Source of the DNA: Octopus vulgaris
Taxonomy: Eukaryota
DNA length: 64,000 nt
Reading direction: 5' to 3'
Assembly (NCBI GenBank): GCA_951406725.2
Contig: OX597819.1
Span: 128,774,001-128,838,000 of the forward strand
Under the pieces are notes generated by a model. The model saw only the letters and a program-made list of their open reading frames with translations. It did no database searches and was not told the DNA's origin. Position 1 is the stretch's first letter, and each line of letters begins with the position of its first letter. A program made the position numbers and the translations under genes. This document shows positions 6,550 to 57,339 of this stretch, piece by piece.

Positions 6550-7170
6550 AGTACTATTCCAAACGAAAATAAAAATAAATGCTATTCCATTTGTAGTCTC
6601 CCGTAATCCTAGGATCCCCAACATTCTACATTCAGCCAAACGATGCTTCTTAATCCCACATCAATCGTCAAATCTCCAACAAATAATTTTAAAAAATCAG
6701 AAATTATCAACAGCTGAAGACAACCACCAAATTTCAAGAGACTTTTGACAGAGGCGAGATTCACATCGGAGAAAAAAATAATGCAAGCAACAAAATGTGG
6801 AAACCTTTGTTGTGGGACATGTGAAATAATTGAGCAAGGAACAGCCAAAAGATTCAAAAGAGGGAGGGAACTGAAAGTGAACGCAAACATAAATTGCAAA
6901 ACAAGAAATCTCATGTACTTGCATGGCAAGCCCACAAACAGTGAGAATTACATTGGAGAAAAAGGGAGAAAACTATCCAACCGTGTAAACGTGCATAAAC
7001 AAACAATCGAAGATTCATCTCTAAGAAATGTTCCTGATAGGAAACTTCTAGACATTTGTGCAAATGGAAAATTTTAAATATTTTACAAAATTAAAGATGA
7101 AAATAATCAACAACATTAGGCAAAAGAAGAATAGTTTGTAAGAATTCTAAATCCAAAATTAAACAAAGGA
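6550..7170 (+). mobile_element. Penelope-like element 3' ORF remnant (Cys-rich linker + GIY-YIG endonuclease)
   Basis: IPFVVSRNPRIPNI, KCGNLCCGTC, NCKTRNLMY..YIGE..L.NR.N.H, KEE*FVRILNPKLN; frameshifted. Confidence 0.85.
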
Positions 7171-7380
7171 AAGTCGACTTTTAAATACTTAACATTCAAA
7201 ATAGACAACAATTTAAAATTACCCCCTTTTGGAAAAATATAAGATGAAAATGATCAAATACAAAAGACAACAGGATACTTTATTTAAAAAAAGATATATT
7301 TCTTAATCTGAAACTATATATATATATATATATGGCATATGAGGAGTTTAAGGCAAAGTAACCTATATATATATTTGAAG

Positions 7381-8802: not shown

Positions 8803-9703
8803 AATTTAGGGACGATACAACCTCGAGACAAAGAATAAGTAAAGAAAATCTCTTTATTACAAAATACAAGCCACTTCTTAACGGGTCTACGACAAACAAT
8901 TAATATACCTCAACTTTAGAATAAAAGAAAAAAATATATATACACACACAAATACTACACTCCATAGAATCCATTACTAATCAGCCCCTTCATAGCTATA
9001 TTTACACCCATTCATATTCTCCCTTCTCTGTTTTTTTCTTCTTCTTCTTCTTCATCATCATCGTTATCATCATCATCGGCGTCATCATCATCACCACCAT
9101 CTTCTCCTTCTCCTTCTTCTTCTTCTTCTTCTTCTTCTTCTTCTTCTTCTTCTTCTTCTTCTTCTTCTTCTTCATCATCGTTATCATCATCATCGTCGTC
9201 ATAATCATCACCACCATCACCATCATCTTCTCCTTCTCCTTCTTCTTCTTCTTCTTCTTCTTCTTCTTCTTCTTCTTCTTCTCCCCCCTACCCCTTAAGT
9301 TTGTCACTAATGTTTTTTAGTATAACACCTACGCTAATTCTATAAACAATCCTGAATTGAACTGAGACTGCCAGCCGCCACTGACCATTCAAAATACGAC
9401 CATCAGGGCACTCCCAGATTCTCCCACCCCCTTTCCTCACCAGCCTTCCCTCTACTACCCTACCAAGAACTCACAACTACCTCGAACACACAAGTGCAAA
9501 CAAGGGAGTCAGAGAAAGGCAGAATGCCACTTAAATCTGAACACTACTATAGAAATATTCTTTTAAAAAAACTTTTCTTCTAATTTTTCTAAATTTAATT
9601 ATTTAATCGTTACAGTTGAAAAGGTCTCAAAATGACCGAAACCGGTACTGAAATGTTCACTATAAAATTATTTTAGCATTTTCTATTTTTTACTTGTTTT
9701 TTC
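8801..9703 (+). mobile_element. 5'-truncated Penelope-like element: GIY-YIG C-terminus, 3' region with (TTC)/(ATC) repeats and a hammerhead
   Basis: 8823-8903 reads SRQRISKENLFITKYKPLLNGSTTNN*; hammerhead at 9613; (TA)n on both sides. Confidence 0.75.
9613..9650 (+). ncRNA. Minimal type I hammerhead, U3:A8 core variant
   Basis: CAG-TTGAAAA-GGTC-tcaaaat-GACC-GAAA-CCGG-TA-CTG; palindromic stem III ACCGGT; GUA cleavage triplet. Confidence 0.75.
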
Positions 9704-9920: not shown

Positions 9921-9963
9921 GTGTGTGTATATATATATATATATACATACACATATATATATA

Positions 9964-11220
9964 CTGTTGTAGTTGGGGATGGTCATGTTGCTAATAAAAA
10001 CACACGCACTATAATTCTGGTGTTCATTTGCTTCGGCTTTATTTTATATTAATCGTATTTCGGCCGGAGTTCTTTCGTCACACTTCTGTGACCTCATCAG
10101 TGGTCCTTTGCTTTCTTCTTTCTTTTTTGTGTCTTTCCTTACTAATGATCAGCCTTTTTGTATTCCTATTGTATGTGTCTTTATTTGCGCATGCGTATAC
10201 CTCTGTGTGTGTCTATGTTTTTAGTAAGAGTGTGAGTGGGGAGGGTGGGAATGTGCTTGTATTATCAGAATCCACTGTCTATATACGTTCGTTTAATTTC
10301 TTTTTATTTATTTTTTTCATGTGTTTATATCTACTTATTTTTTCTATTCTTCCTTTTTTTGTATTTAATTTAATTTATTTTGTTAATGTATATAGTTATT
10401 TAATTAATTTGCTTATCTGTGTATTGTATTGTATTCATATCGTTATCAGTTTATGGGGATCTTATTCTGTCATAGCTTGTGGTGTGTTGGGGTGTGTGCT
10501 AGTGTTCCATTCTAGTTTCCTATTCAGGCTAGCTTTATCTTCTATTATGTGTGTAGCTTCTGTAATTTGTCTGATTGTTGCGTCTGTTCTATGTGTAAAC
10601 ATGATTTTAACTTCTATGTTGCTGAGCGAGCCCCCTGTTCTTGCTCGGCATGCTGGTACAGAACCGATGAGCTATTTTCCTCCAATGCTCATTTACCCGC
10701 TCTCCTATGCTCCGTGCTATTTCCCCTACGTACGTCGTCGTCTTGTTACTTCACCGTCCCTCTGTAATCTTATACTATAGACTACATTCCTGGCTTTACA
10801 GTTTGTGGGCTAAATCTATATACTGTACAGTTCCTATCAGTACAGGGGTTCTACTAAAAGGGTAGCTTCTACAGATTAGGGATTTGATGGAGTTGCCTGG
10901 CCTTTCAACAACCTTAATTCTTAGCTTAGGTTTGTCTAGGGCCCTTCTAAAGCGGTACGCCTGTTTGCCTCTAGGGGTGGTGTCGATGAACATGACACTC
11001 TAATATTTTTGGCTATCATACCATGAGTTGGCCTTCCCTATTTTCTTCTTAGTCCTTTCAATAGTGTTCCATGACTTGCTCCTATAGAGTGGGCAAATCC
11101 CATTCCTATCGTTACGTATGATAGTTTCAAATTTCCTCGTGGATCCTTTGTATACTCTGATCCTTTATCTATGGCTGTATCCTGAGAACTGAATGCGGTG
11201 AACGAAATGTTGACACATAC
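9964..11220 (-). mobile_element. Penelope-like element 3' portion (RT thumb/linker, GIY-YIG, pLTR with hammerhead)
   Basis: Minus-strand frameshifted translation: IKVVERPGNSIKSLI, RNVVYSI, YVGEIARSIGERVNEHW. Confidence 0.85.
10062..10106 (-). ncRNA. Type I hammerhead, canonical core, stem I degenerate
   Basis: GGACCA-CTGATGA-G-GTCAC-agaagt-GTGAC-GAAA-GAAC-TC-CGGCC. Confidence 0.65.
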
Positions 11221-11329
11221 AGAAAATGTTCTTGTTGATTTTTTTTATTTATGAATTTTGTTCCTAAAAAAATCATTACAATAATCATACAATCTACGTT
11301 TTAAATTTAATTTTTAGTTACAATTCCTC

Positions 11330-12310
11330 TGAATTTTGCATTTTAATTTTTTTACATGTTCTCCATAAATATAAAACAATGTCAGGCAATTTGGGAGGAA
11401 ATTTAGTATGTCTTTTTGTAATGATGTTGTCCCTGATTTCATGCCAATTATCATCTCCAGTTTTAATCAGTGTGGTATAATGACCTGCTCTAGATGTTGG
11501 TCCTCTATGATCAACTGTGGCTTTTAGAGTAAAATTTATGCCAATTATTTGCTGCGTTTCTGAACTGAAGTTCATTATATCACATTTGATACTTTCTTCC
11601 AAATTAATATTTTGATTAATTAAAAAATCTATTAATTTGAATAACAAGATATTTGAATTCAGGATGAAATTCAATTCTGGAAGTAATTTCATGTTTAGTA
11701 TTGAGTGAACATGTTTCACAACTTTTTGTAAGTGAATATGTTGTGGTTTTAGTAATCAAAATTTTAAATTGTTGAGGACCATTCGTTGGTTGCAAAAACA
11801 ATTCTTCTTTCAGGTAGTTGTGATTGTCTACTACAACCAGGAGTTGTATTGCAGTTGCAAATTTCATTTATAAAAGATGTTGCAAGTATGTTGATGCAAT
11901 CTAATGCATCTAGCAGTGTCATATTTGATGAATGTAAACTTTTGTTGAAATTCCATTTCAAAACGAAGAGATATTTCTTTCCAAAATTCTTGAGCACATC
12001 GTTGAATTCCATCATTAAATCTTCCACAATTATCCTTTTTAAATTTGCGACAGTGTTTTGATTATGATAAAGAATATTTGAGCGCATGATTTTGGTAGGG
12101 GGTTACTTTAGCTGCTATTTTTAGCGTGTCGAATGACCAGGAAGAGGCTATTTCATTAGTTCGATTGCATGATGAGATTCTTTTACACATATATGTAATA
12201 TGTATATATACATCATCGGCAGAAGTTAGAGAGTAGGTCAAAAGCTGAGAGTTTCGTGTAATGGCACTTATCAAACACGAATTTGTCCATCGTCACTCTG
12301 TAACTTCAAA
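11330..12310 (-). pseudogene. Intronless frameshifted ubiquitin-specific protease (C19/USP-like) relic
   Basis: Motifs in order across frames: TNSCLISAI (Cys box), LLDALDCINIL, C-x-C, CETC..PEFKYLVIQINRF, LKATVDHRGPTSRAGHYTT..WHEIRD (His/Asp box). Confidence 0.75.
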
Positions 12311-15569: not shown

Positions 15570-16507
<938 letters not shown>

Positions 16508-16508
<1 letters not shown>

Positions 16509-16890
16509 GAGGTGCAATGGCCCAGTGGTTAGGGCAGCGGACTCGCGGTCATAGGATCGCGGTTTCGATTCCCAGACCGGGCGTTGTGAGTGTTTATTGA
16601 GCGAAAACACCTAAAAGCTCCACGAGGCTCCGGCAGGGGATGGTGGTGATCCCTGCTGTACTCTTTCACCACAACTTTCTCTCACTCTTACTTCCTGTTT
16701 CTGTTGTACCTGTATTTCAAAGGGCCGGCCTTGTCACTCTCTGTGTCACGCTGAATATCCCCGAGAACTACGTTAAGGGTGCACGTGTCTGTGGAGTGCT
16801 CAGCCACTTACACGTAAATTTCACGAGTAGGCTGTTCCGTTGATTCGGATCAACCGGAACCCTCATCGTCGTAAACGACGGAGTGCTTCC
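16508..16890 (+). mobile_element. tRNA-derived SINE family A, full length
   Basis: Pol III A box (tggcccagtgg) and B box (gtttcgattcc); near-identical copies at 19092, 29256, 56170. Confidence 0.9.
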
Positions 16891-16920
16891 ATTCCATATA
16901 TATATATATATATATATATA

Positions 16921-17075
16921 GTTTTTCTCTCCTTGTTTTTTCTGTGTCCCTTTCTGTAGAAGAGCATAGGCTCGAAACGTAAAAGACTTCTTCTATTCCT
17001 GAGCGTTATACTAATACATCTGTTTGTTTTGTACACCACCTGTCTTCGTCTTTTGTTTTTTTCGTAAACTCTCCC
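16921..17075 (+). mobile_element. Short hammerhead element, family HH-B, adjoining TA tract
   Basis: Copies at 34281-34481 and 39991-40188, both TA-flanked. Confidence 0.85.
16950..16985 (+). ncRNA. Minimal type I hammerhead, A6U variant (HH-B)
   Basis: CTTT-CTGTAGA-A-GAGC-atag-GCTC-GAAA-CG-TA-AAAG. Confidence 0.7.
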
Positions 17076-17472: not shown

Positions 17473-18039
17473 AATTAATCAATATAGGGTGGCAAAAAAA
17501 ATTTTGTAGAATTCTTTTGCCACCAGCGGCCTAGTAGGAAAAAATTAAAATAGTCATAGACCATTTTTAAGTTCAACATCAACAATAAAGGAACGGCCAT
17601 AATAGGCCATTCACCCACTAGAAATAACAGCCAAAGCTTCAACCGCAAATAAAAGTTAATTCAGTAAACCAGGAGAAAATTTAAAAAACTTTTACCCTGT
17701 AATTTCTTATACGATATACCGTTTCATCTGCTGATTAATGGTAAACTAACCTGATTAAATTAAATCAAGCCAATCTTCCACAGGCCCTCAGATTCTTCAG
17801 TAAGAAATAGCCCAAGACGGAACAGATATTTTCACGAGGCATTTCCGACGTTGCCAAGTTTATATCTGACCTAAAATTTTCAAATCGTCGCACTCGCGCC
17901 AAATTTATCGGCAGCAAATTACAGGGTAAAAGTTTTTAAAATTTTCTCCTGGTTTACTGAATTAACTTTTATTTGCGGTTGAAGCTTTGGCTGTTATTTC
18001 TAGTGGGTGAATGGCCTATTATGGCCGTTCCTTTATTGT

Positions 18040-18043
<4 letters not shown>
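17473..18043 (-). mobile_element. Fold-back hammerhead element, family HH-D, in (TA)n
   Basis: ~128-bp inverted arms 17578-17705 / 17916-18043; TA flanks. Confidence 0.85.
17702..17808 (-). ncRNA. Type I hammerhead, canonical core, long stem II insertion
   Basis: ATTTCTTA-CTGAAGA-ATCTG..CAGAT-GAAA-CGGTATATCG-TA-TAAGAAAT: 8-bp stem I, 4-bp stem III. Confidence 0.85.
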
Positions 18044-18895: not shown

Positions 18896-19091
18896 GAGCG
18901 AAAGAGCTAAGGAAGAAGGGATAGAGAAAGTGTGCGCGCGTGTGTTTATCAGGCTTTGTTGAATAGAACGATGCAAAAGTGTAGCCGAATGGTTAAAAAG
19001 TTCGCTTCACACTCATTAGACTCCAGTTTCGATCCCACTACGCAGTAACTCAACCATGTCCCTCCGACCACTTAGCGTTGTATTGACCTCT

Positions 19092-19471
19092 GGAAGCACT
19101 CCGTCGGTTACGACGACGAGGGTTCCGGTTGATCCGAATCAACGGAACAGCCTGCTCGTGAAATTAACGTGTAAGTGGCTGAGCACTCCACAGACACGTG
19201 TACCCTTAACGTAGTTCTCGGGGATATTCAGCGTGACACAGAGAGTGACAAGGCCGGCCCTTTGAAATACAGGTACAACAGAAACAGGAAGTAAGAGTGA
19301 GAGAAAGTTGTGGTGAAAGAGTACAACAGGGATCACCACCCCGCTGCCGGAGCCTCGTGGAGCTTTAGGTGTTTTCGCTCAATAAACACTCACAACGCCC
19401 GGTCTGGGAATCGAAACCGCGATCCTATGACCGCGAGTCCGCTGCCCTAACCACTGGGCCATTGCGCCTCC
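19092..19471 (-). mobile_element. SINE family A nested in an older SINE
   Basis: Full length; flanked by gttgtattgacc direct repeats (TSD). Confidence 0.9.
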
Positions 19472-28844: not shown

Positions 28845-29255
28845 TACGTACATCTAAGCATATGTGTGTGAATGTGTGTATTTTTATACATCATAACGAC
28901 ACAAACTTAAAACGGTTGCTTTCTGCGCGTACACACGCATATACACAGCAATGGCGACATACATGTGTCACGTGTGTTTTCTGTCGTTGGAGAGCCTGTT
29001 CGTTATATGTGTGACATTGCATATGTTCGAAATAAAGAAGCAAAAAAGTTAGGCATGTGTATTTTCGGGTGTGTACATAAGATAAGTGAAGCAAACAGAT
29101 GCAAAGTGAAGTAGAAAGATATGTCAGTGGAATAAATGACTCGTTGCTACCCGTCATTCAAAATGTATTGCGACACTTAGCAAAGACAAATGGTTTGTAC
29201 ACACACTACAATATACGATAAGCATGTATGTATATAGCTCCATCATAGACATAGA

Positions 29256-29636
29256 GGAGGCGCAATGGTCCAGTGGTTAGGGCAGCGGACTCGCGGTCGT
29301 AGGATCGCGGTTTCGATTCCCAGACCGGGCGTTGTGAGTGTTTATTGAGCGAAAACACCTAAAGCTCCACGATGCTCCGGCAGGGGATGGTGGTGATCCC
29401 TGCTGTACTCTTTCACCACAACTTTCTCTCACTCTTACCTCCTGTTTCTATTGTACCTGTATTTCAAAGGGCCGGCCTTGTCACTCTCTGTGTCATGCTG
29501 AATATCCCCGAGAACTACGTTAAGGGTACACGTGTCTGTGGAGTGCTCAGCCACTTACACGTTAATTTCACGAGCAGGCTGTTCTGTTGATCGGATCAAC
29601 CGGAGCCCTCGTCGTCGTAACCGACGGAGTGCTTCC
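29256..29636 (+). mobile_element. SINE family A
   Basis: Full length; TSD catagacatagagg. Confidence 0.9.
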
Positions 29637-30034
29637 ATCCCATAGACATAGAGGCATTAAATGCGTTTACACACACATGTGCACCTATATACTTGTGCGT
29701 GCGTGTCTATGTGTGTGTGTGTAAAAGTGAGATTCGATTAAGTAGTTTCGGATAACACGGTTCTCTAACTAACACGGTACATAAATTGAGACAATCAGAA
29801 ATCCAAGTATATGTCAACAATGTGCAGATGTAGGTTAACAAAGATCTGAGCAATGCATTGGCAGTGACTGTTGTATGGCGGTTGGCTGCCATCAAATTTA
29901 TGATTCTCCTCCTTGCTTGTCTTAATGCAATTGTCTCTATATGTATCAGCTCTGATGCTGGTTATTACGCTTATATACACCAAAATATGATGTATCATCT
30001 AACGTTGTTTAGACTGAAGATTAAAATTTTGGTG

Positions 30035-33261: not shown

Positions 33262-33298
33262 TTCACTGAGGAGGTATAATAATATCGAAACGTATGAG
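33262..33298 (+). ncRNA. Minimal type I hammerhead, canonical core
   Basis: TTCA-CTGAGGA-GGTAT-aata-ATATC-GAAA-CG-TA-TGAG. Confidence 0.7.
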
Positions 33299-34280: not shown

Positions 34281-34481
34281 AGTCGCCATGATAGATCGTT
34301 AGCCACTACACACATTTTTTCTCCTTGATTCTCTCCTTGTTTTTTCGGTGTCCCTTTCTGTAGAAGAGCGTAGGCTCGAAACGTAAAATACTTTTTCTAT
34401 TCCTGAGCGTTATACTAATACAACTGTTTGTTTTGTACACCACCTGTCTTCGTCTTTTGTTTTTTTCGTAAAAACTCCCCC
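34281..34481 (+). mobile_element. HH-B element with hammerhead at ~34354-34388
   Basis: CTTT-CTGTAGA-A-GAGC-gtag-GCTC-GAAACGTA-AAA; TA flanks. Confidence 0.85.
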
Positions 34482-39800: not shown

Positions 39801-39990
39801 TGTCTTTATTCTCGCATTTATTAATACACTGCATTTTGGTAATCCGATCAGTAACGGCAGTAAGGTATGATACATCACCTATTTTGTTAATGTCATGCTT
39901 TGTATTAACAAATAAGCTATAAATGTGGTCCAGTTGATGTGTTGGTTAATCTGTGGTTTTCTCCATTTTCTAATTATTTGCATTTATATA

Positions 39991-40186
39991 TGATAGATCG
40001 TTAGCCACTACACACGTTTTTTTTTCTCTCCTTGTGTCTCTCCTTGTCTTTTCTGTGTCCCTTTCTGTAGAAGAGCGTAGGCTCGAAACGTAAAAGTCTT
40101 TTTTCTATTCCTGAGCGTTATACTAATACATCTGTTTGTTTTGTACACCACCTGTCTTCGTCTTCTGTTTTTTTTCGTAAACTCTT

Positions 40187-40188
<2 letters not shown>
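39991..40188 (+). mobile_element. HH-B element with hammerhead at 40061-40096
   Basis: CTTT-CTGTAGA-A-GAGC-gtag-GCTC-GAAACGTA-AAAG; followed by a long TA tract. Confidence 0.85.
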
Positions 40189-40641
<453 letters not shown>

Positions 40642-42591: not shown

Positions 42592-43010
42592 AGGCGTCGA
42601 GCTGGCAGAAATGTTAGCACGCCGGGCGAAATGCGTAGCCGTATTTCGTCTGCCGCTACGTTCTGAGTTCAAATTCTGCCGAGGTCGACTTTGCCTTTCA
42701 TCCTTTTGGGGTCGATAAATTAAATGCCAGTTACGCACTGGGGTCGATGTAATCGACTTAATCCGTGTGTCTGTCCTTGTTTGTCCTCTCTGTGTGTAGC
42801 CCCTTGTGGACAGTAAAGAAATAGGTATTTCGTCTGCCACTACGTTCTGAGTTCAAATTCCGCCGAGGTCAACCTTGCCTTTCATCCTTTCGGGGTCGAT
42901 AAACTAAGTACTAGTTACGCACTGGGATCGATATAATCGACTTAATCCGTTTGTCTGTCCTTGTTTGTCCTCTCTGTGTTTTGCCCCTTGTGGGTAGAAA
43001 AGAAATAGGT
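42592..43010 (+). mobile_element. Dimeric SINE family B
   Basis: Full unit plus a second unit starting at ggtatttcgtctgcc; TSD ggtattagttccataa. Confidence 0.9.
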
Positions 43011-44293
43011 ATTAGTTCCATAAGGTCAGAAGGCTCTGATGCAGCATTGTGCACAACAAGAAGAGCCTTCATTCGAAGACCCTTTTCCTTGAGATAGTCA
43101 CATACAGATGCAAGTTATAGATAAAGCCCTGATAAATCATTTGAAACTTTAGCGCAGAAAAGTTTTGCATATGCTTCCTAAGCTTATATCCATCCAGTCA
43201 CTCTGGTTTTTCCCTTTCAAAATGTGACATATCTCATTCTCATTGCAATTGTAAACCTTTTAGGAGTATTAGCAGAAGTTTTCCTCAAACTATGGAAACC
43301 TTACGCCAACCCTATCGTGCAATCTAACGAAGACTCTAAGTACAACACACTCAAGTTTACAGGGGTGCATTACGGAAATCGGTGCAACGCCTATCAGACA
43401 GTTGGAAACATTGCGCATTATCCGAGGCTTTTGCACTCAGCTCTCTTATTGCTTTCTCATTGAATGAATCTAAGATGCCATCCGAATAACTCACTAACAT
43501 TAAGGAGAAAGATATTTCTCAGGAATATCCTTAAGTATCTAAAGAAATCAGACCACCCAGATTTTGTCGGGGTGTAAATGGTCGTACGTCTAAAGGCATC
43601 ACCGTCGACTTCACTACAGAAGAAAACTTCTGAAATATACTTCTATCCATTTTATGCAAATCAACATAACGTTAAGCCGGTAAAATTCCAAAGAAAAATT
43701 CAGCTTGGTGTTGTGATTATTGAAATATTAAAATGTGGATTGAAATGTGAATAGAATTTTAAGGGACTGTTGATTAATTTGTTTTGAATTTGATTTACAC
43801 ATAGAAATAATAGAAACATACTTCGGAAGTTTCCGTTACCCCCACCGCAGATAGCCGATTGATACATTGTGTCATCTATAAATATTGCAGTGGGTTGTTT
43901 TCAGTTCTTTCTTCGTTTTCCACTTGAACATTCTTTAATCTGAATGTTAGCCATAGAAGTTGATCTGCTTATCGAAGCAGATATATCTCTCGGCTGCTGC
44001 AAAAATAATTCTGTTTTTAGATCAAGTGATATAAGAAAAGAAAGACAAAATCTTGAATGGTTAAATGATGTTAGCGATTGTATTCAGCCCATAAAAACCC
44101 CCTAGAGTTATCTTTTAAACTCAATAAATATGTTTTCTAAGTTAGTTTCATATTTTGTAATTCAATAAACACTGCGGGACGTTGATATTTTCTTTTCAGT
44201 GTTAACAGTTTGATTTCGTTTTGTAGTTTGATTTAAGCTCAGAATTATAAATTCTATTCACATTTTATGCCAGGCAGTATATAGCTAAGTTAC

Positions 44294-44708
44294 AAGGCGT
44301 TGAGCTGGCAGAATCGTTAGCACGCCGGGCGAAATGCTTAGCAGTATTTCGTCTGCCGTTACGTTCTGAGTTCAAATTCCGCCGAGGTCGACTTCGCCTT
44401 TCATCCTTCGGGGTCGATTAAATAAGTACCAGTTACGCACGGATCGATATAATAAACTTAATCCGTTTGTCTGTCCTTGTTTGTCCTCTCTGTGTTTAGC
44501 CCCTTGTGGGTAGTGAAGAAATAGGTATTTCGTGTGCCGCTACTTTCTGAGTTCAAAATCCGCCGAGGTCGACTTTGCCTTTCATCCTTTCCGGGTCAAT
44601 AAATTAAGTACCAGTTACGCACTGGGGTCGATATAATCGACTTAATCCGTTTGCCTGTCCTTGTTTGTCCCTTCTGTGTTTAGCCCTTGTGGGTAGTAAA
44701 GAAATAGG
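44294..44708 (+). mobile_element. Dimeric SINE family B
   Basis: Same dimer junction as 42592; TSD tatatag(c/t)taagttaca. Confidence 0.9.
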
Positions 44709-45280
44709 TATATAGTTAAGTTACATCCCTTTCTGAGTCCACATCAGGCTGTTGTTGGCTGCTAATTATTCTCTCGGTGTCGATAGAGTATTTGTAATAT
44801 ATTGCGATCGATTCGTTCATATATTGAGCTCCTTCGAATGTGTCCATTTGCATCCGTAAAAGAAATCAACATTTCTTGGTGTTCCTCTTTACTTAGCCTC
44901 TGGTCAACCTTGTTCGAACAGACCTGTGATGAAAATCTTTCCATCCCGCTACTTTAATACTGTTTAGTCAGGAAAGAAATAACAGCCTTTGTTATTCCTC
45001 AAGGACGGCAGGACTGGTAACATAAACGGAGTAAGTTATTCTCAAACCAGAAACCTAAGCTGAACGCTTGCAACCGAGTGAACTCCGCTAAAAGCAATTA
45101 TGGAAGAACAGCGATGTTAATTAGCGAAGGATTAGGTCTAACAGGTAGTTATGTTTTAGGAGTTTTATATTCTTTGGTTGCACTCATTAGCTTAGCAGTG
45201 AACGAACTAAGGAGTCTAATTCGGTGTAGTCGTTTTTTTCTGATAGGAAATGTATCTCAACTTCCCACAAATTACACACT

Positions 45281-55675: not shown

Positions 55676-56169
55676 GAGTGAGAGAGCAGAGCATGCCATC
55701 AAAGTGACACTGGGGTAAAATATACGAAGACCTGTCTTATACACGCAAAAAACGGGATTGTCAAAGCTTGAGCGCTTTTGATCAGAAATTATTTCAGGTA
55801 AAAATAATCCTCAAATATGATTTTGTTCAAAATGAATTGATGACATAATTATAAACTTTCAAAAATTAAAAAAATAAATAGTTAGAACTAATTGTGCTGG
55901 CCCAATTATAATTGATTAATCTTCAGAGACAAGGAAACCTTAAAAATGATCTTCCATCCGCGAATCTAATCTTTTCTCGTGAGACCCAAACGCACACACA
56001 CACACTCGCTCTCTTCTCCTAGTCTCTCTTTCCCTCTCTCTCTTTCTCCCATCCCTCCTTCTCCCCTCTCTCTCTTTCTCCTCCTCCCTCTCCCCCACCT
56101 CTCTCACCCATTCTGAAGTTAGTTGAGCCTGAAAGATGTAGTAGCACACACAATTATATACATCAGTGT

Positions 56170-56552
56170 GGAGGTGTAATGGCCCAGTGGTTAGAGCAGC
56201 GGACTCGCAGTCATAGGATCGCGGTTTCGATTCCCAGACCGGGCGTTGTGAGTGTTTATTGAGCGAAAACACCTAAAAGCTCCACGAGGCTCCGGCAGGG
56301 GATGGTGGTGATCCCTGCTGTACTCTTTCACCACAACTTTCTCTCACTCTTACTTCCTGTTTCTGTTGTACCTGTATTTCAAAGGGCCGGCCTTGTCACT
56401 CTCTGTGTCACGCTGAATATCCCCGAGAACTACATTAAGGGTGCACGTGTCTGTGGAGTGCTCAGCCACTTACACGTTAATTTCACGAGCAGGCTGTTCC
56501 GTTGATTCGGATCAACCGGAACCCTCATCGTCGTAACCGACGGAGTGCTTCC
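56170..56552 (+). mobile_element. SINE family A
   Basis: Full length; TSD atatacatcagtgt. Confidence 0.9.
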
Positions 56553-57339
56553 ATCCATATATACATCAGTGTTTAAATAAACTGTCAACTGATTTCACAT
56601 TTTCCAATGTGTTGCTAGAAATGGCAGCTAAACACCTTTGAATCTCACCTACCATTTTGAAAAGAAGACAAAAGAAAAAGATACATTTGACAATGTAGTT
56701 CTAGATATGAAAAGATCACTGCAATGCCTTTTTACACAGCTGACCTGGGATTAAATAACAACCACCAATACCATCATCGTGATCCAACGAAAAAGCCTCT
56801 TTCTGGTCGCTCTGTCTGTTAGAAATAGCAGCAAAATCTCCGTCACATAAATCTTTATGTACTGAAAAAGAAAAGGAAGGACACTTTGGAGAATGTAATT
56901 ATAATTATTCAAAGACGAGATGGCCGCATCTAAGAATGATTTATGCGTGATTTGGCTGTTATTTCTAGCGACCATATAAAGGACCACTCATTGATTGTTT
57001 CTCTAGTTAAAACAGTTGACGCATTTCGCCCATTTCTTTGAATGTGGTAGAAGGGAAATCGAAGAAACGGTTTCCTGTAATACAATAATGCTTTTATCTT
57101 TTATGGTGTTGTGTGATCATCTCTTTTGAGTAAAACTGCATCGAAATGTCACACAAAAATCTAGGGATGAGTTTGAGAACCGCTGAGTTACACCCTCACA
57201 TAAAGCAGAAATCCTGAGTTATCTACATTTTCTTCTGTTTAGCTTCTGGGAATTGCAGATAAATCACTATTCTAAGGAGTCTACCGATATTTACAGAATG
57301 TAGGGCAGTGAAGCTAACGAAAACGATAGCGATGCAGTT

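What the first reader, a model, noticed from the sequence alone, without database searches (positions are those of the whole stretch)
16921..17075. HH-B: ~200-bp repeat family with a minimal A6U hammerhead
Seen: three copies (16921, 34281, 39991) share the 3' end (..aaactcycc then TA) but have variable 5' ends, and all carry CTGTAGA-A-GAGC..GCTC-GAAACGTA-AAA. U at the normally invariant position 6 is shared by all three, so it is a family trait. Stem III is only ACGT, implying dimeric or trans folding (inference). Variable 5' ends with a fixed 3' end fit reverse-transcription truncation.
Basis: partly seen in the sequence, partly recalled or inferred. Interest (0 to 1): 0.7.

Follow-up and report, generated by a model that had tools for sequence, protein, structure and literature searches.

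The report
Retrotransposon end fragments with altered ribozyme
Three scattered copies of a short end-piece of a Penelope-type retrotransposon carry the usual small self-cutting RNA motif of these elements, but with one normally fixed letter changed, which most likely weakens or disables it.

Summary
Three dispersed copies, about 95% identical (16921-17075, 34281-34480, 39990-40189, all +), carry a minimal type I hammerhead that fits the published Penelope-like element (PLE) consensus except for U at position 6. They end 94-97 nt past the predicted cut and abut TA-rich microsatellite, like other PLE-type hammerhead loci in this window. Best reading: solo pseudo-LTR fragments, copied from uncleaved RNA from an internal start, with U6 inherited from one source element.

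U6 probably cripples the ribozyme. CUGA mutants are reported to be poor, and in folding models U6 pairs U4-G5-U6 with the stem III palindrome. PLE insertion in vitro does not need cleavage. There is no covariation, tandem array or linked ORF, and no further copies were reachable.

One lead: U6-A7-G8 forms a 3' splice-acceptor-like TAG after a pyrimidine tract, so the core may double as a splice site; the controls are weak. Verdict: new variant of a known kind, activity untested.

The parts
16921..17075 (+). Copy 1, 155 nt, 5'-shortened; inserted in a TA run at the end of a different ~400-bp dispersed repeat
16950..16985 (+). Minimal type I hammerhead, copy 1: stem I 16950-53/16982-85, C3 16954, U6 16957, extra A 16961, stem II 16962-73, GAAA 16974-77, predicted cut after 16981
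34281..34480 (+). Copy 2, 200 nt, longest 5' end; (TA)n on both sides
34354..34389 (+). Minimal hammerhead, copy 2: C3 34358, U6 34361, predicted cut after 34385; outer stem I pair broken
34298..34363 (+). Hypothetical 66-nt GT...AG intron (GTTAG donor, pyrimidine tract, acceptor TAG = U6-A7-G8); inferred only
39990..40189 (+). Copy 3, about 200 nt, followed by a 450-nt TA-rich run
40061..40096 (+). Minimal hammerhead, copy 3: C3 40065, U6 40068, predicted cut after 40092
40000..40070 (+). Hypothetical 71-nt GT...AG intron, same sites as in copy 2; inferred only
16982..17075 (+). Conserved 94-nt segment 3' of the predicted cut (95 and 97 nt in copies 2 and 3); its end is the inferred reverse-transcription start; no ATG in it

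Best explanation
These are solo pseudo-LTR fragments of one Penelope-like retroelement family that targets (TA)n.

SHOWN: three dispersed copies, a PLE-type minimal hammerhead architecture, a shared 3' end, and TA-rich flanks.

INFERRED, step 1: the element's GIY-YIG endonuclease nicks TA-rich DNA. Step 2: its reverse transcriptase starts at a fixed internal site about 95 nt 3' of the hammerhead cut site. Step 3: it copies through the intact hammerhead, so the template was uncleaved or religated RNA. Step 4: it stops after 155-200 nt. Step 5: the source element had already changed A6 to U, so all copies carry it.

The change most likely leaves the ribozyme very slow or dead: A6 contacts are lost, and U4-G5-U6 becomes complementary to A15.1-C-G. 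This is tolerated because cleavage is not needed for insertion.
For: ARCHITECTURE. It equals the published PLE consensus (U-rich, stem I, CUGANGAH, G...C stem II, GAAA, palindrome, UH) at every position but 6. The listed Acropora and Xenopus(2) motifs have the same 4-5 bp stem II and C-G palindrome (PMC4209133 supplement). That paper finds most such motifs as single elements, probably truncated PLEs.

3' END. In the anole PLE the cut is at +26 and reverse transcription starts internally at +111-118, i.e. 85-92 nt downstream by my subtraction. Catalytic mutants insert normally from unprocessed RNA (PMC11167929). Here the distance is 94-97 nt. Three other hammerhead-like loci in the window end 56, 103 and 121 nt past their cut at a TA run; a fourth (33266) has no TA run within 400 nt. 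One lies behind a decayed GIY-YIG-like ORF and one has an inverted partial copy.

TARGET. (TA)n preference is described for Neptune and Naiad PLEs (PMC8557442). Only 1.7% of window positions lie just upstream of a (TA)4+ run.

ATTENUATION. With U6, positions 4-6 are paired with P 0.49-0.86, against 0.02-0.29 with A6. With A6 the predicted fold of copies 1 and 3 is exactly stems I + II. CUGA-turn mutants other than the C3-G8 swap showed low activity (PMC9901934). A6C strongly cut activity in Mg2+ (PMC7151607).
Against: No RT or endonuclease ORF adjoins any copy; the nearest PLE-like remnants are about 6 and 10 kb from copy 1 and share no sequence with it. No target-site duplication can be told apart from the TA repeats. 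Two of three 5' ends lie within 7 nt, which fits a defined unit as well as random truncation. Copy 1's 3' flank is TA-rich but not a pure (TA)4+ run. Rfam gives no hammerhead match to the element, though it also misses the canonical-core motifs at 15903 and 33266. I found no measurement of A6U itself, so the loss of activity is extrapolated. Nearest-neighbour folding ignores tertiary contacts and protein help.
Confidence: 0.6

Rival explanations
1. Same PLE origin, but the U6 hammerhead is a working, conditional ribozyme. It cleaves as a dimer in tandem transcripts of the full element, helped by the element's protein or by Mn2+.
For: All other core positions and stem II are intact in 3 of 3 copies. 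The anole PLE hammerhead cleaves only with the element's protein. The natural A6C variant cleaves well in Mn2+. PLE minimal hammerheads are weak even with A6.
Against: No covariation, and one stem I pair is broken. The intact core is not significant (P about 0.16). The active dimer lies 7-13 kcal/mol above the dimer MFE, and U6 widens the gap by 0.4-1.4. There are no tandem copies here.
Confidence: 0.2
2. U6 was kept because U6-A7-G8 is the YAG of a spliceosomal 3' splice site closing a 66-71 nt intron. Splicing would remove C3-G8 and abolish the hammerhead, while unspliced RNA serves as the insertion template. This is compatible with the PLE origin.
For: The TAG is the first AG after 59 and 64 AG-free nt in copies 2 and 3. 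The 20 nt before it are 85-90% pyrimidine, a level reached by 29 of 3176 YAG sites in the window, these three included. A GTTAG lies 66 and 71 nt upstream. D. virilis Penelope has a 75-nt intron at 416-491 (PMC2377424) with hammerhead position 3 at 496. The 9616 motif has a CAG directly before position 3.
Against: The half of the element 3' of the cut is about as pyrimidine-rich (0.67 against 0.70), and U-rich flanks are part of the general consensus. 325 of 3172 YAG sites have such a donor-like word at that distance. A branch-point-like word is present in 1 of 3 copies. Splicing yields only a 10-codon ORF, and there is no downstream ATG in the element. Thresholds were chosen after seeing the site. 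A search for host proteins that begin a stretch at this acceptor found none (weak).
Confidence: 0.13
3. A complete ~200-nt non-autonomous unit (SINE-like or retrozyme-like) with its own fixed ends, mobilised in trans by a PLE, rather than a truncated piece of a long element.
For: Copies 2 and 3 have nearly the same 5' end. Density is high: 3 in 64 kb, or 10-137 per Mb as a Poisson range if the window is typical. Non-autonomous PLE derivatives are described.
Against: No tandem arrays. The cut lies mid-element, not at a unit boundary. There is no canonical stem I/loop architecture, no tRNA-derived head and no terminal inverted repeat.
Confidence: 0.15
4. The hammerhead look is chance inside an unrelated T-rich repeat.
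For: One core mismatch; folding z-scores of -0.06 to -0.55; no Rfam hit.
Against: 0 of 20000 element shuffles and 0.09 loci per shuffled window. The extra base at 9/10.1, the G10.1-C11.1 pair, the palindrome and the distance to the 3' end all fit.
Confidence: 0.03

Closest known systems
Minimal type I hammerheads in PLE pseudo-LTRs (PMC4209133)
   Same: Short stem I, unpaired base between 9 and 10.1, G10.1-C11.1 pair, palindromic 15.2/16.2, U-rich flanks, mostly solo copies
   Different: U at position 6. All 56 listed motifs have A6, but their descriptor fixed the core, so U6 forms could not have been found that way
Anole Poseidon element PAc (PMC11167929)
   Same: Hammerhead cut about 90 nt upstream of the fixed 3' end; AT-rich target; insertions keep the intact motif
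   Different: PAc has a canonical core and its ORF starts in stem II; here there is no ATG in or after the motif and no ORF is known
Natural A6C hammerhead of phage Bcep176 (PMC3088659, PMC7151607)
   Same: Natural change at position 6
   Different: C not U; a single-locus ribozyme, not a stem-III-less repeat family; assayed (slow in Mg2+, good in Mn2+)
Neptune and Naiad PLE clades (PMC8557442)
   Same: (TA)n insertion bias that hides target duplications
   Different: Clade is set by the protein, which is missing here; Naiads lack canonical hammerheads, and five plus three short words of this element were absent from that paper's supplement text
Non-LTR retrozymes (PMC7229834; bioRxiv 10.64898/2026.07.22.740005)
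   Same: Small non-coding hammerhead-bearing repeat, low GC
   Different: Retrozymes are tandem arrays, with canonical type I motifs in PMC7229834; these are solo and minimal
D. virilis Penelope 5' intron (PMC2377424, PMC4209133)
   Same: Short intron-like segment ending at the hammerhead's 5' side
   Different: There the intron is proven and ends at helix I, leaving the core; here it is hypothetical and would end inside the core

Membership tests
Minimal type I hammerhead (PLE type) | Core C3 U4 G5 A6 N7 G8 A9 | tested here: not met
   U at position 6 in 3 of 3 copies; the other five fixed positions match
Minimal type I hammerhead (PLE type) | G12 A13 A14 A15.1 ... U16.1 H17 with palindromic stem III | tested here: met
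   GAAA-CG-U-A in 3 of 3
Minimal type I hammerhead (PLE type) | Stem II opened by G10.1-C11.1 after one unpaired base; stem I of 3 bp or more | tested here: met
   Stem II 4 of 4 pairs in all copies; stem I 4, 3 and 4 bp
Minimal type I hammerhead (PLE type) | Compensatory changes within the family | tested here: inconclusive
   0 of 8 pairs covary and 1 of 24 cells is unpaired, with only three close copies
Minimal type I hammerhead (PLE type) | Self-cleavage 3' of H17 as a dimer | not testable with these tools
   Needs an assay; folding models argue for attenuation
Penelope-like element | ORF with PLE reverse transcriptase and GIY-YIG endonuclease linked to the repeat | tested here: inconclusive
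   None adjoins the three copies; solo fragments are not expected to have one, and the rest of the genome was not available
Penelope-like element | ~200-nt pseudo-LTR with a hammerhead motif and a defined 3' end past it | tested here: met
   155-200 nt, end 94-97 nt past the cut; 181-218 bp pLTRs in PMC3846280
Penelope-like element | Partial-tandem or inverted arrangement, optional 30-40 bp tail | tested here: not met
   All three are solo with one 3' end; these are optional features of individual insertions
Penelope-like element | Insertion at AT-rich or (TA)n targets | tested here: met
   A long TA run on at least one side in 3 of 3; background 1.7%
Non-LTR retrozyme | Tandem array with a hammerhead in each unit | tested here: not met
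   No such array among 86 tandem-repeat rows
Naiad clade | N-terminal GIY-YIG, CxC linker, C-terminal RT | not testable with these tools
   No ORF; exact words absent from the published consensus text, where line breaks or divergence could hide a match
tRNA-derived SINE or MITE | tRNA-like head, or terminal inverted repeats | tested here: not met
   ARAGORN found 0 genes (it can miss decayed heads); no terminal inverted repeats inside the element

The most novel reading that the evidence does not exclude
The U6 core is selected, not decayed. The hammerhead's catalytic loop doubles as a spliceosomal 3' splice site, so splicing deletes C3-G8 and sorts the retroelement's RNA into ribozyme-free mRNA and unspliced template. 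U6 motifs would then be a high-copy class invisible to every CUGANGA-based search, possibly sitting in PLE lineages now called hammerhead-less.
Probability: 0.12. Interest if true: 0.75.

Novelty: new variant of a known kind. Interest (0 to 1): 0.38.

Why it matters
The role of PLE hammerheads is open: they are nearly universal in canonical PLEs, weak in vitro, and dispensable for insertion in the one reconstituted system. It has been suggested that they merely ride along and that their loss may help spread. A family that multiplied with a broken core is a natural test of that idea. In this window the U6 family has three copies, while four other hammerhead-bearing families have one intact motif each; that is too few to conclude from. 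If U6 proves active, the core consensus widens and genome surveys have undercounted. If it makes a splice site, it shows a ribozyme core under dual constraint. If it is simply dead, it is an ordinary transposon remnant with a telling mutation.

Tried and rejected
MORE COPIES. No eukaryotic DNA collection was open; metagenome and viral contigs stayed unchecked. Two exact-pattern scans of bacterial and archaeal genomes gave 0 loci. blastn against phages and plasmids gave no match. Translations of the element used as bait in protein space found nothing relevant: 1 candidate, none scored; 747 candidates, none scored; 1 hit, E 2.5e-4, an unrelated repetitive protein on inspection.

RFAM. 122 matches at E up to 5 in the window, none on the three motifs; 4 irrelevant matches in a local scan.

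ALTERNATIVE REGISTERS. By inspection, reading GAAGA as G5-A9 keeps A6 but breaks C3, U4, stem I and stem II. Reading U as an insertion leaves a C3-A8 mismatch. Both were rejected.

DISCARDED RESULT. The 33266 comparator rows were built in the wrong register (stem II of 1 bp) and were not used.

ENDONUCLEASE FRAGMENTS. The 6718-7074 fragment had no relevant Pfam hit and no sequence homologue. Its GIY-YIG label rests on feature similarity to clusters where 18-27% of members carry that family.

LITERATURE. Searches for hammerhead with A6U (2 listed, neither on natural hammerheads by title and abstract start), with CUGUAGA/CUGUNGA/U6 variant/A6G (9 listed) and with octopus (4 listed) showed no report of this variant in the listings. 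Two key papers were not held: Lunse et al. on dimeric PLE hammerhead variants and Arkhipova et al. 2017. Supplement file 1 of PMC4209133 could not be searched. A prior report of U6 is therefore not excluded. One search fetched an irrelevant paper through a wrong id.

Full report
SETTING. The window is microsatellite-rich, 28-42% GC per 2 kb, and full of dispersed repeats and decayed retroelement ORFs, so it is animal genomic DNA. Its short repeats resemble octopus SINEs as I recall them; no call tested that, and the argument does not depend on it.

OBSERVATION. BLAST and nhmmer find three copies and no others: 16921-17075, 34281-34480 and 39990-40189, all on the + strand. The shared part differs by 7, 7 and 8 substitutions over about 151 nt, mostly private to one copy, as expected for independent insertions from one source. 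Each carries stem I (CTTT/AAAG, 3 bp in copy 2), C3 U4 G5 U6 A7 G8 A9, one extra A, a 4-bp stem II, GAAA, CG, U16.1 and A17. The predicted cuts follow 16981, 34385 and 40092, with 61, 105 and 103 nt upstream and 94, 95 and 97 nt downstream inside the element. A descriptor with position 6 free gave seven loci in the real window, a mean of 0.09 in 300 shuffled windows, and 0 of 20000 in shuffles of the element. It was written after seeing the motif. Rfam does not match the motif and its folding energy is unremarkable, but Rfam also misses two canonical-core minimal motifs nearby.

IDENTITY. Cervera and De la Pena (PMC4209133; I read parts 1-2 of 4 of the text and parts 1-2 of 3 of supplement file 2) define PLE minimal hammerheads by a short stem I, an unpaired base between 9 and 10.1, a G10.1-C11.1 pair, a palindrome in place of stem III and U-rich flanks, and find most as single copies. 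HH-B has all of these. All 56 motifs in their alignment have A6, but their descriptor fixed the core, as they note. In the anole element PAc (PMC11167929, parts 1-2 of 4) the cut is at +26 and reverse transcription starts internally at +111-118. Catalytic mutants insert normally, and cleavage needs the protein. That explains a fixed 3' end about 90 nt past the cut and an intact motif in every copy. Within the window, three other hammerhead-like loci end 56, 103 and 121 nt past their cuts at TA runs, and a fourth has no such run. The one near 10100 (-) follows a decayed GIY-YIG-like ORF, and the one at 15903 has an inverted 69-nt partial copy. Each HH-B copy has a long TA run on at least one side, against a 1.7% background. 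(TA)n bias that hides target duplications is described for Neptune and Naiad PLEs (PMC8557442, passages). Against this, no ORF is linked to any copy, none is tandem, and two of three 5' ends nearly coincide. PLE membership is therefore likely but not shown.

WHAT U6 DOES. Sharing U6 shows that the source element had it, not that it is selected. The alignment has no covariation and one broken stem I pair. The unmutated core and stem II have probability about 0.16 under uniform mutation. In a pairwise mutagenesis of a hammerhead, all CUGA-turn mutants except the C3-G8 swap had low activity (PMC9901934, passages; no A6U figure seen). A natural A6C variant is slow (PMC3088659, passages), and A6C cuts Mg2+ activity strongly while sparing Mn2+ activity (PMC7151607, parts 1-2 of 4). 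My folding comparison adds a cost specific to U: U4-G5-U6 pairs with A15.1-C-G (P 0.49-0.86, against 0.02-0.29 with A6), and with A6 the predicted fold of copies 1 and 3 is exactly stems I and II. The active dimer is 7-13 kcal/mol above the dimer MFE, but it is also 6-12 above with A6, so the model cannot by itself call activity. I conclude that the ancestor was an ordinary A6 motif and that this one is probably attenuated or dead.

SPLICE-SITE LEAD. U6-A7-G8 reads TAG. It is the first AG after 59 and 64 nt in the two long copies, follows an 85-90% pyrimidine 20-mer (29 of 3176 YAG sites in the window reach 85%), and has GTTAG 66 and 71 nt upstream. D. virilis Penelope has a 75-nt intron ending five bases before hammerhead position 3 (PMC2377424, passages). 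The controls weaken this. The downstream half is as pyrimidine-rich (0.67 against 0.70), 325 of 3172 YAG sites have such a donor-like word, a branch-like word occurs in 1 of 3 copies, and the splice gives only a 10-codon ORF. It remains a testable minority reading.

COMPARISON AND NOVELTY. It is built like a PLE minimal hammerhead but fails the A6 criterion, so I do not file it as a proven ribozyme. It is not a retrozyme array (PMC7229834, passages; bioRxiv 10.64898/2026.07.22.740005, part 1 of 5). Short words from it are absent from the supplement text of PMC8557442 and from that of an O. vulgaris repeat paper, which holds no sequence library and reports PLEs at 6.83% of that genome (PMC13282606, passages and supplement search). 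Three literature searches (listings only) showed no natural A6U. The two most relevant papers on PLE hammerhead variants were not available, so novelty is provisional. PMC3846280, PMC6155905 and PMC6765202 were seen as passages only. All attempts to reach further copies failed, because no suitable eukaryotic DNA collection was open.

VERDICT. It is most likely a PLE pseudo-LTR fragment family with a crippled hammerhead: a new variant of a known kind, interest 0.38, with about a one-in-eight chance of the more striking splice-site reading.

Noticed in passing
window 9613-9650 (+): Minimal hammerhead with the U3-A8 core covariation and a 6-nt palindrome (ACCGGT); CAG directly before position 3; ends 56 nt past the cut at a TA run. 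It is the only Rfam hammerhead hit in the window (HH9, E 3.8).
   Followed up: partly
window 15623-16093: Canonical-core hammerhead at 15903 (+) with a ~50-nt stem II region and an 8-nt palindrome, plus an inverted 69-nt partial copy at 15623-15691; TA runs on both sides; a typical PLE inverted arrangement.
   Followed up: partly
window 33262-33298 (+): Canonical-core minimal hammerhead (CTGAGGA, ACGT palindrome), single copy, no TA run within 400 nt downstream.
   Followed up: partly
window 9963-11250 (-): Decayed GIY-YIG-like ORF with stops and frameshifts, followed by a hammerhead-like motif near 10100 with imperfect stems I and III, ending at a TA run 103 nt past the cut: the 3' end of another PLE family.
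   Followed up: partly
window 6550-7310 (+): Fragment with a Cys-rich motif before a GIY-YIG-like stretch (6718-7074), set between microsatellites; no hammerhead detected behind it.
   Followed up: partly
window 17550-18041: Element with ~130-nt inverted ends next to a TA run; a hammerhead-like string with C at position 6 at 17914 (-) overlaps one arm and may be chance.
   Followed up: no
window 11318-12102 (-): Two adjacent ORFs, one matching ubiquitin C-terminal hydrolase (Pfam UCH, E 1.8e-7), lying just upstream of the decayed PLE-like ORF on the same strand; whether they belong to one mobile element is unknown.
   Followed up: no
window 16500-16900, 19091-19471, 29251-29650, 56168-56566: A ~400-bp dispersed repeat with 95-98% identical copies; HH-B copy 1 sits in the TA run at its end.
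   Followed up: no
window 42641-43013 and 44344-44711: Head-to-tail dimers of a ~182-bp repeat that also occurs as dispersed copies; no hammerhead found in them by my descriptor.
   Followed up: no
window 34355-34371 and 34394-34410: Inside the element, GAGCGT recurs about 40 nt downstream of stem II and could compete for the stem II 3' strand.
   Followed up: partly
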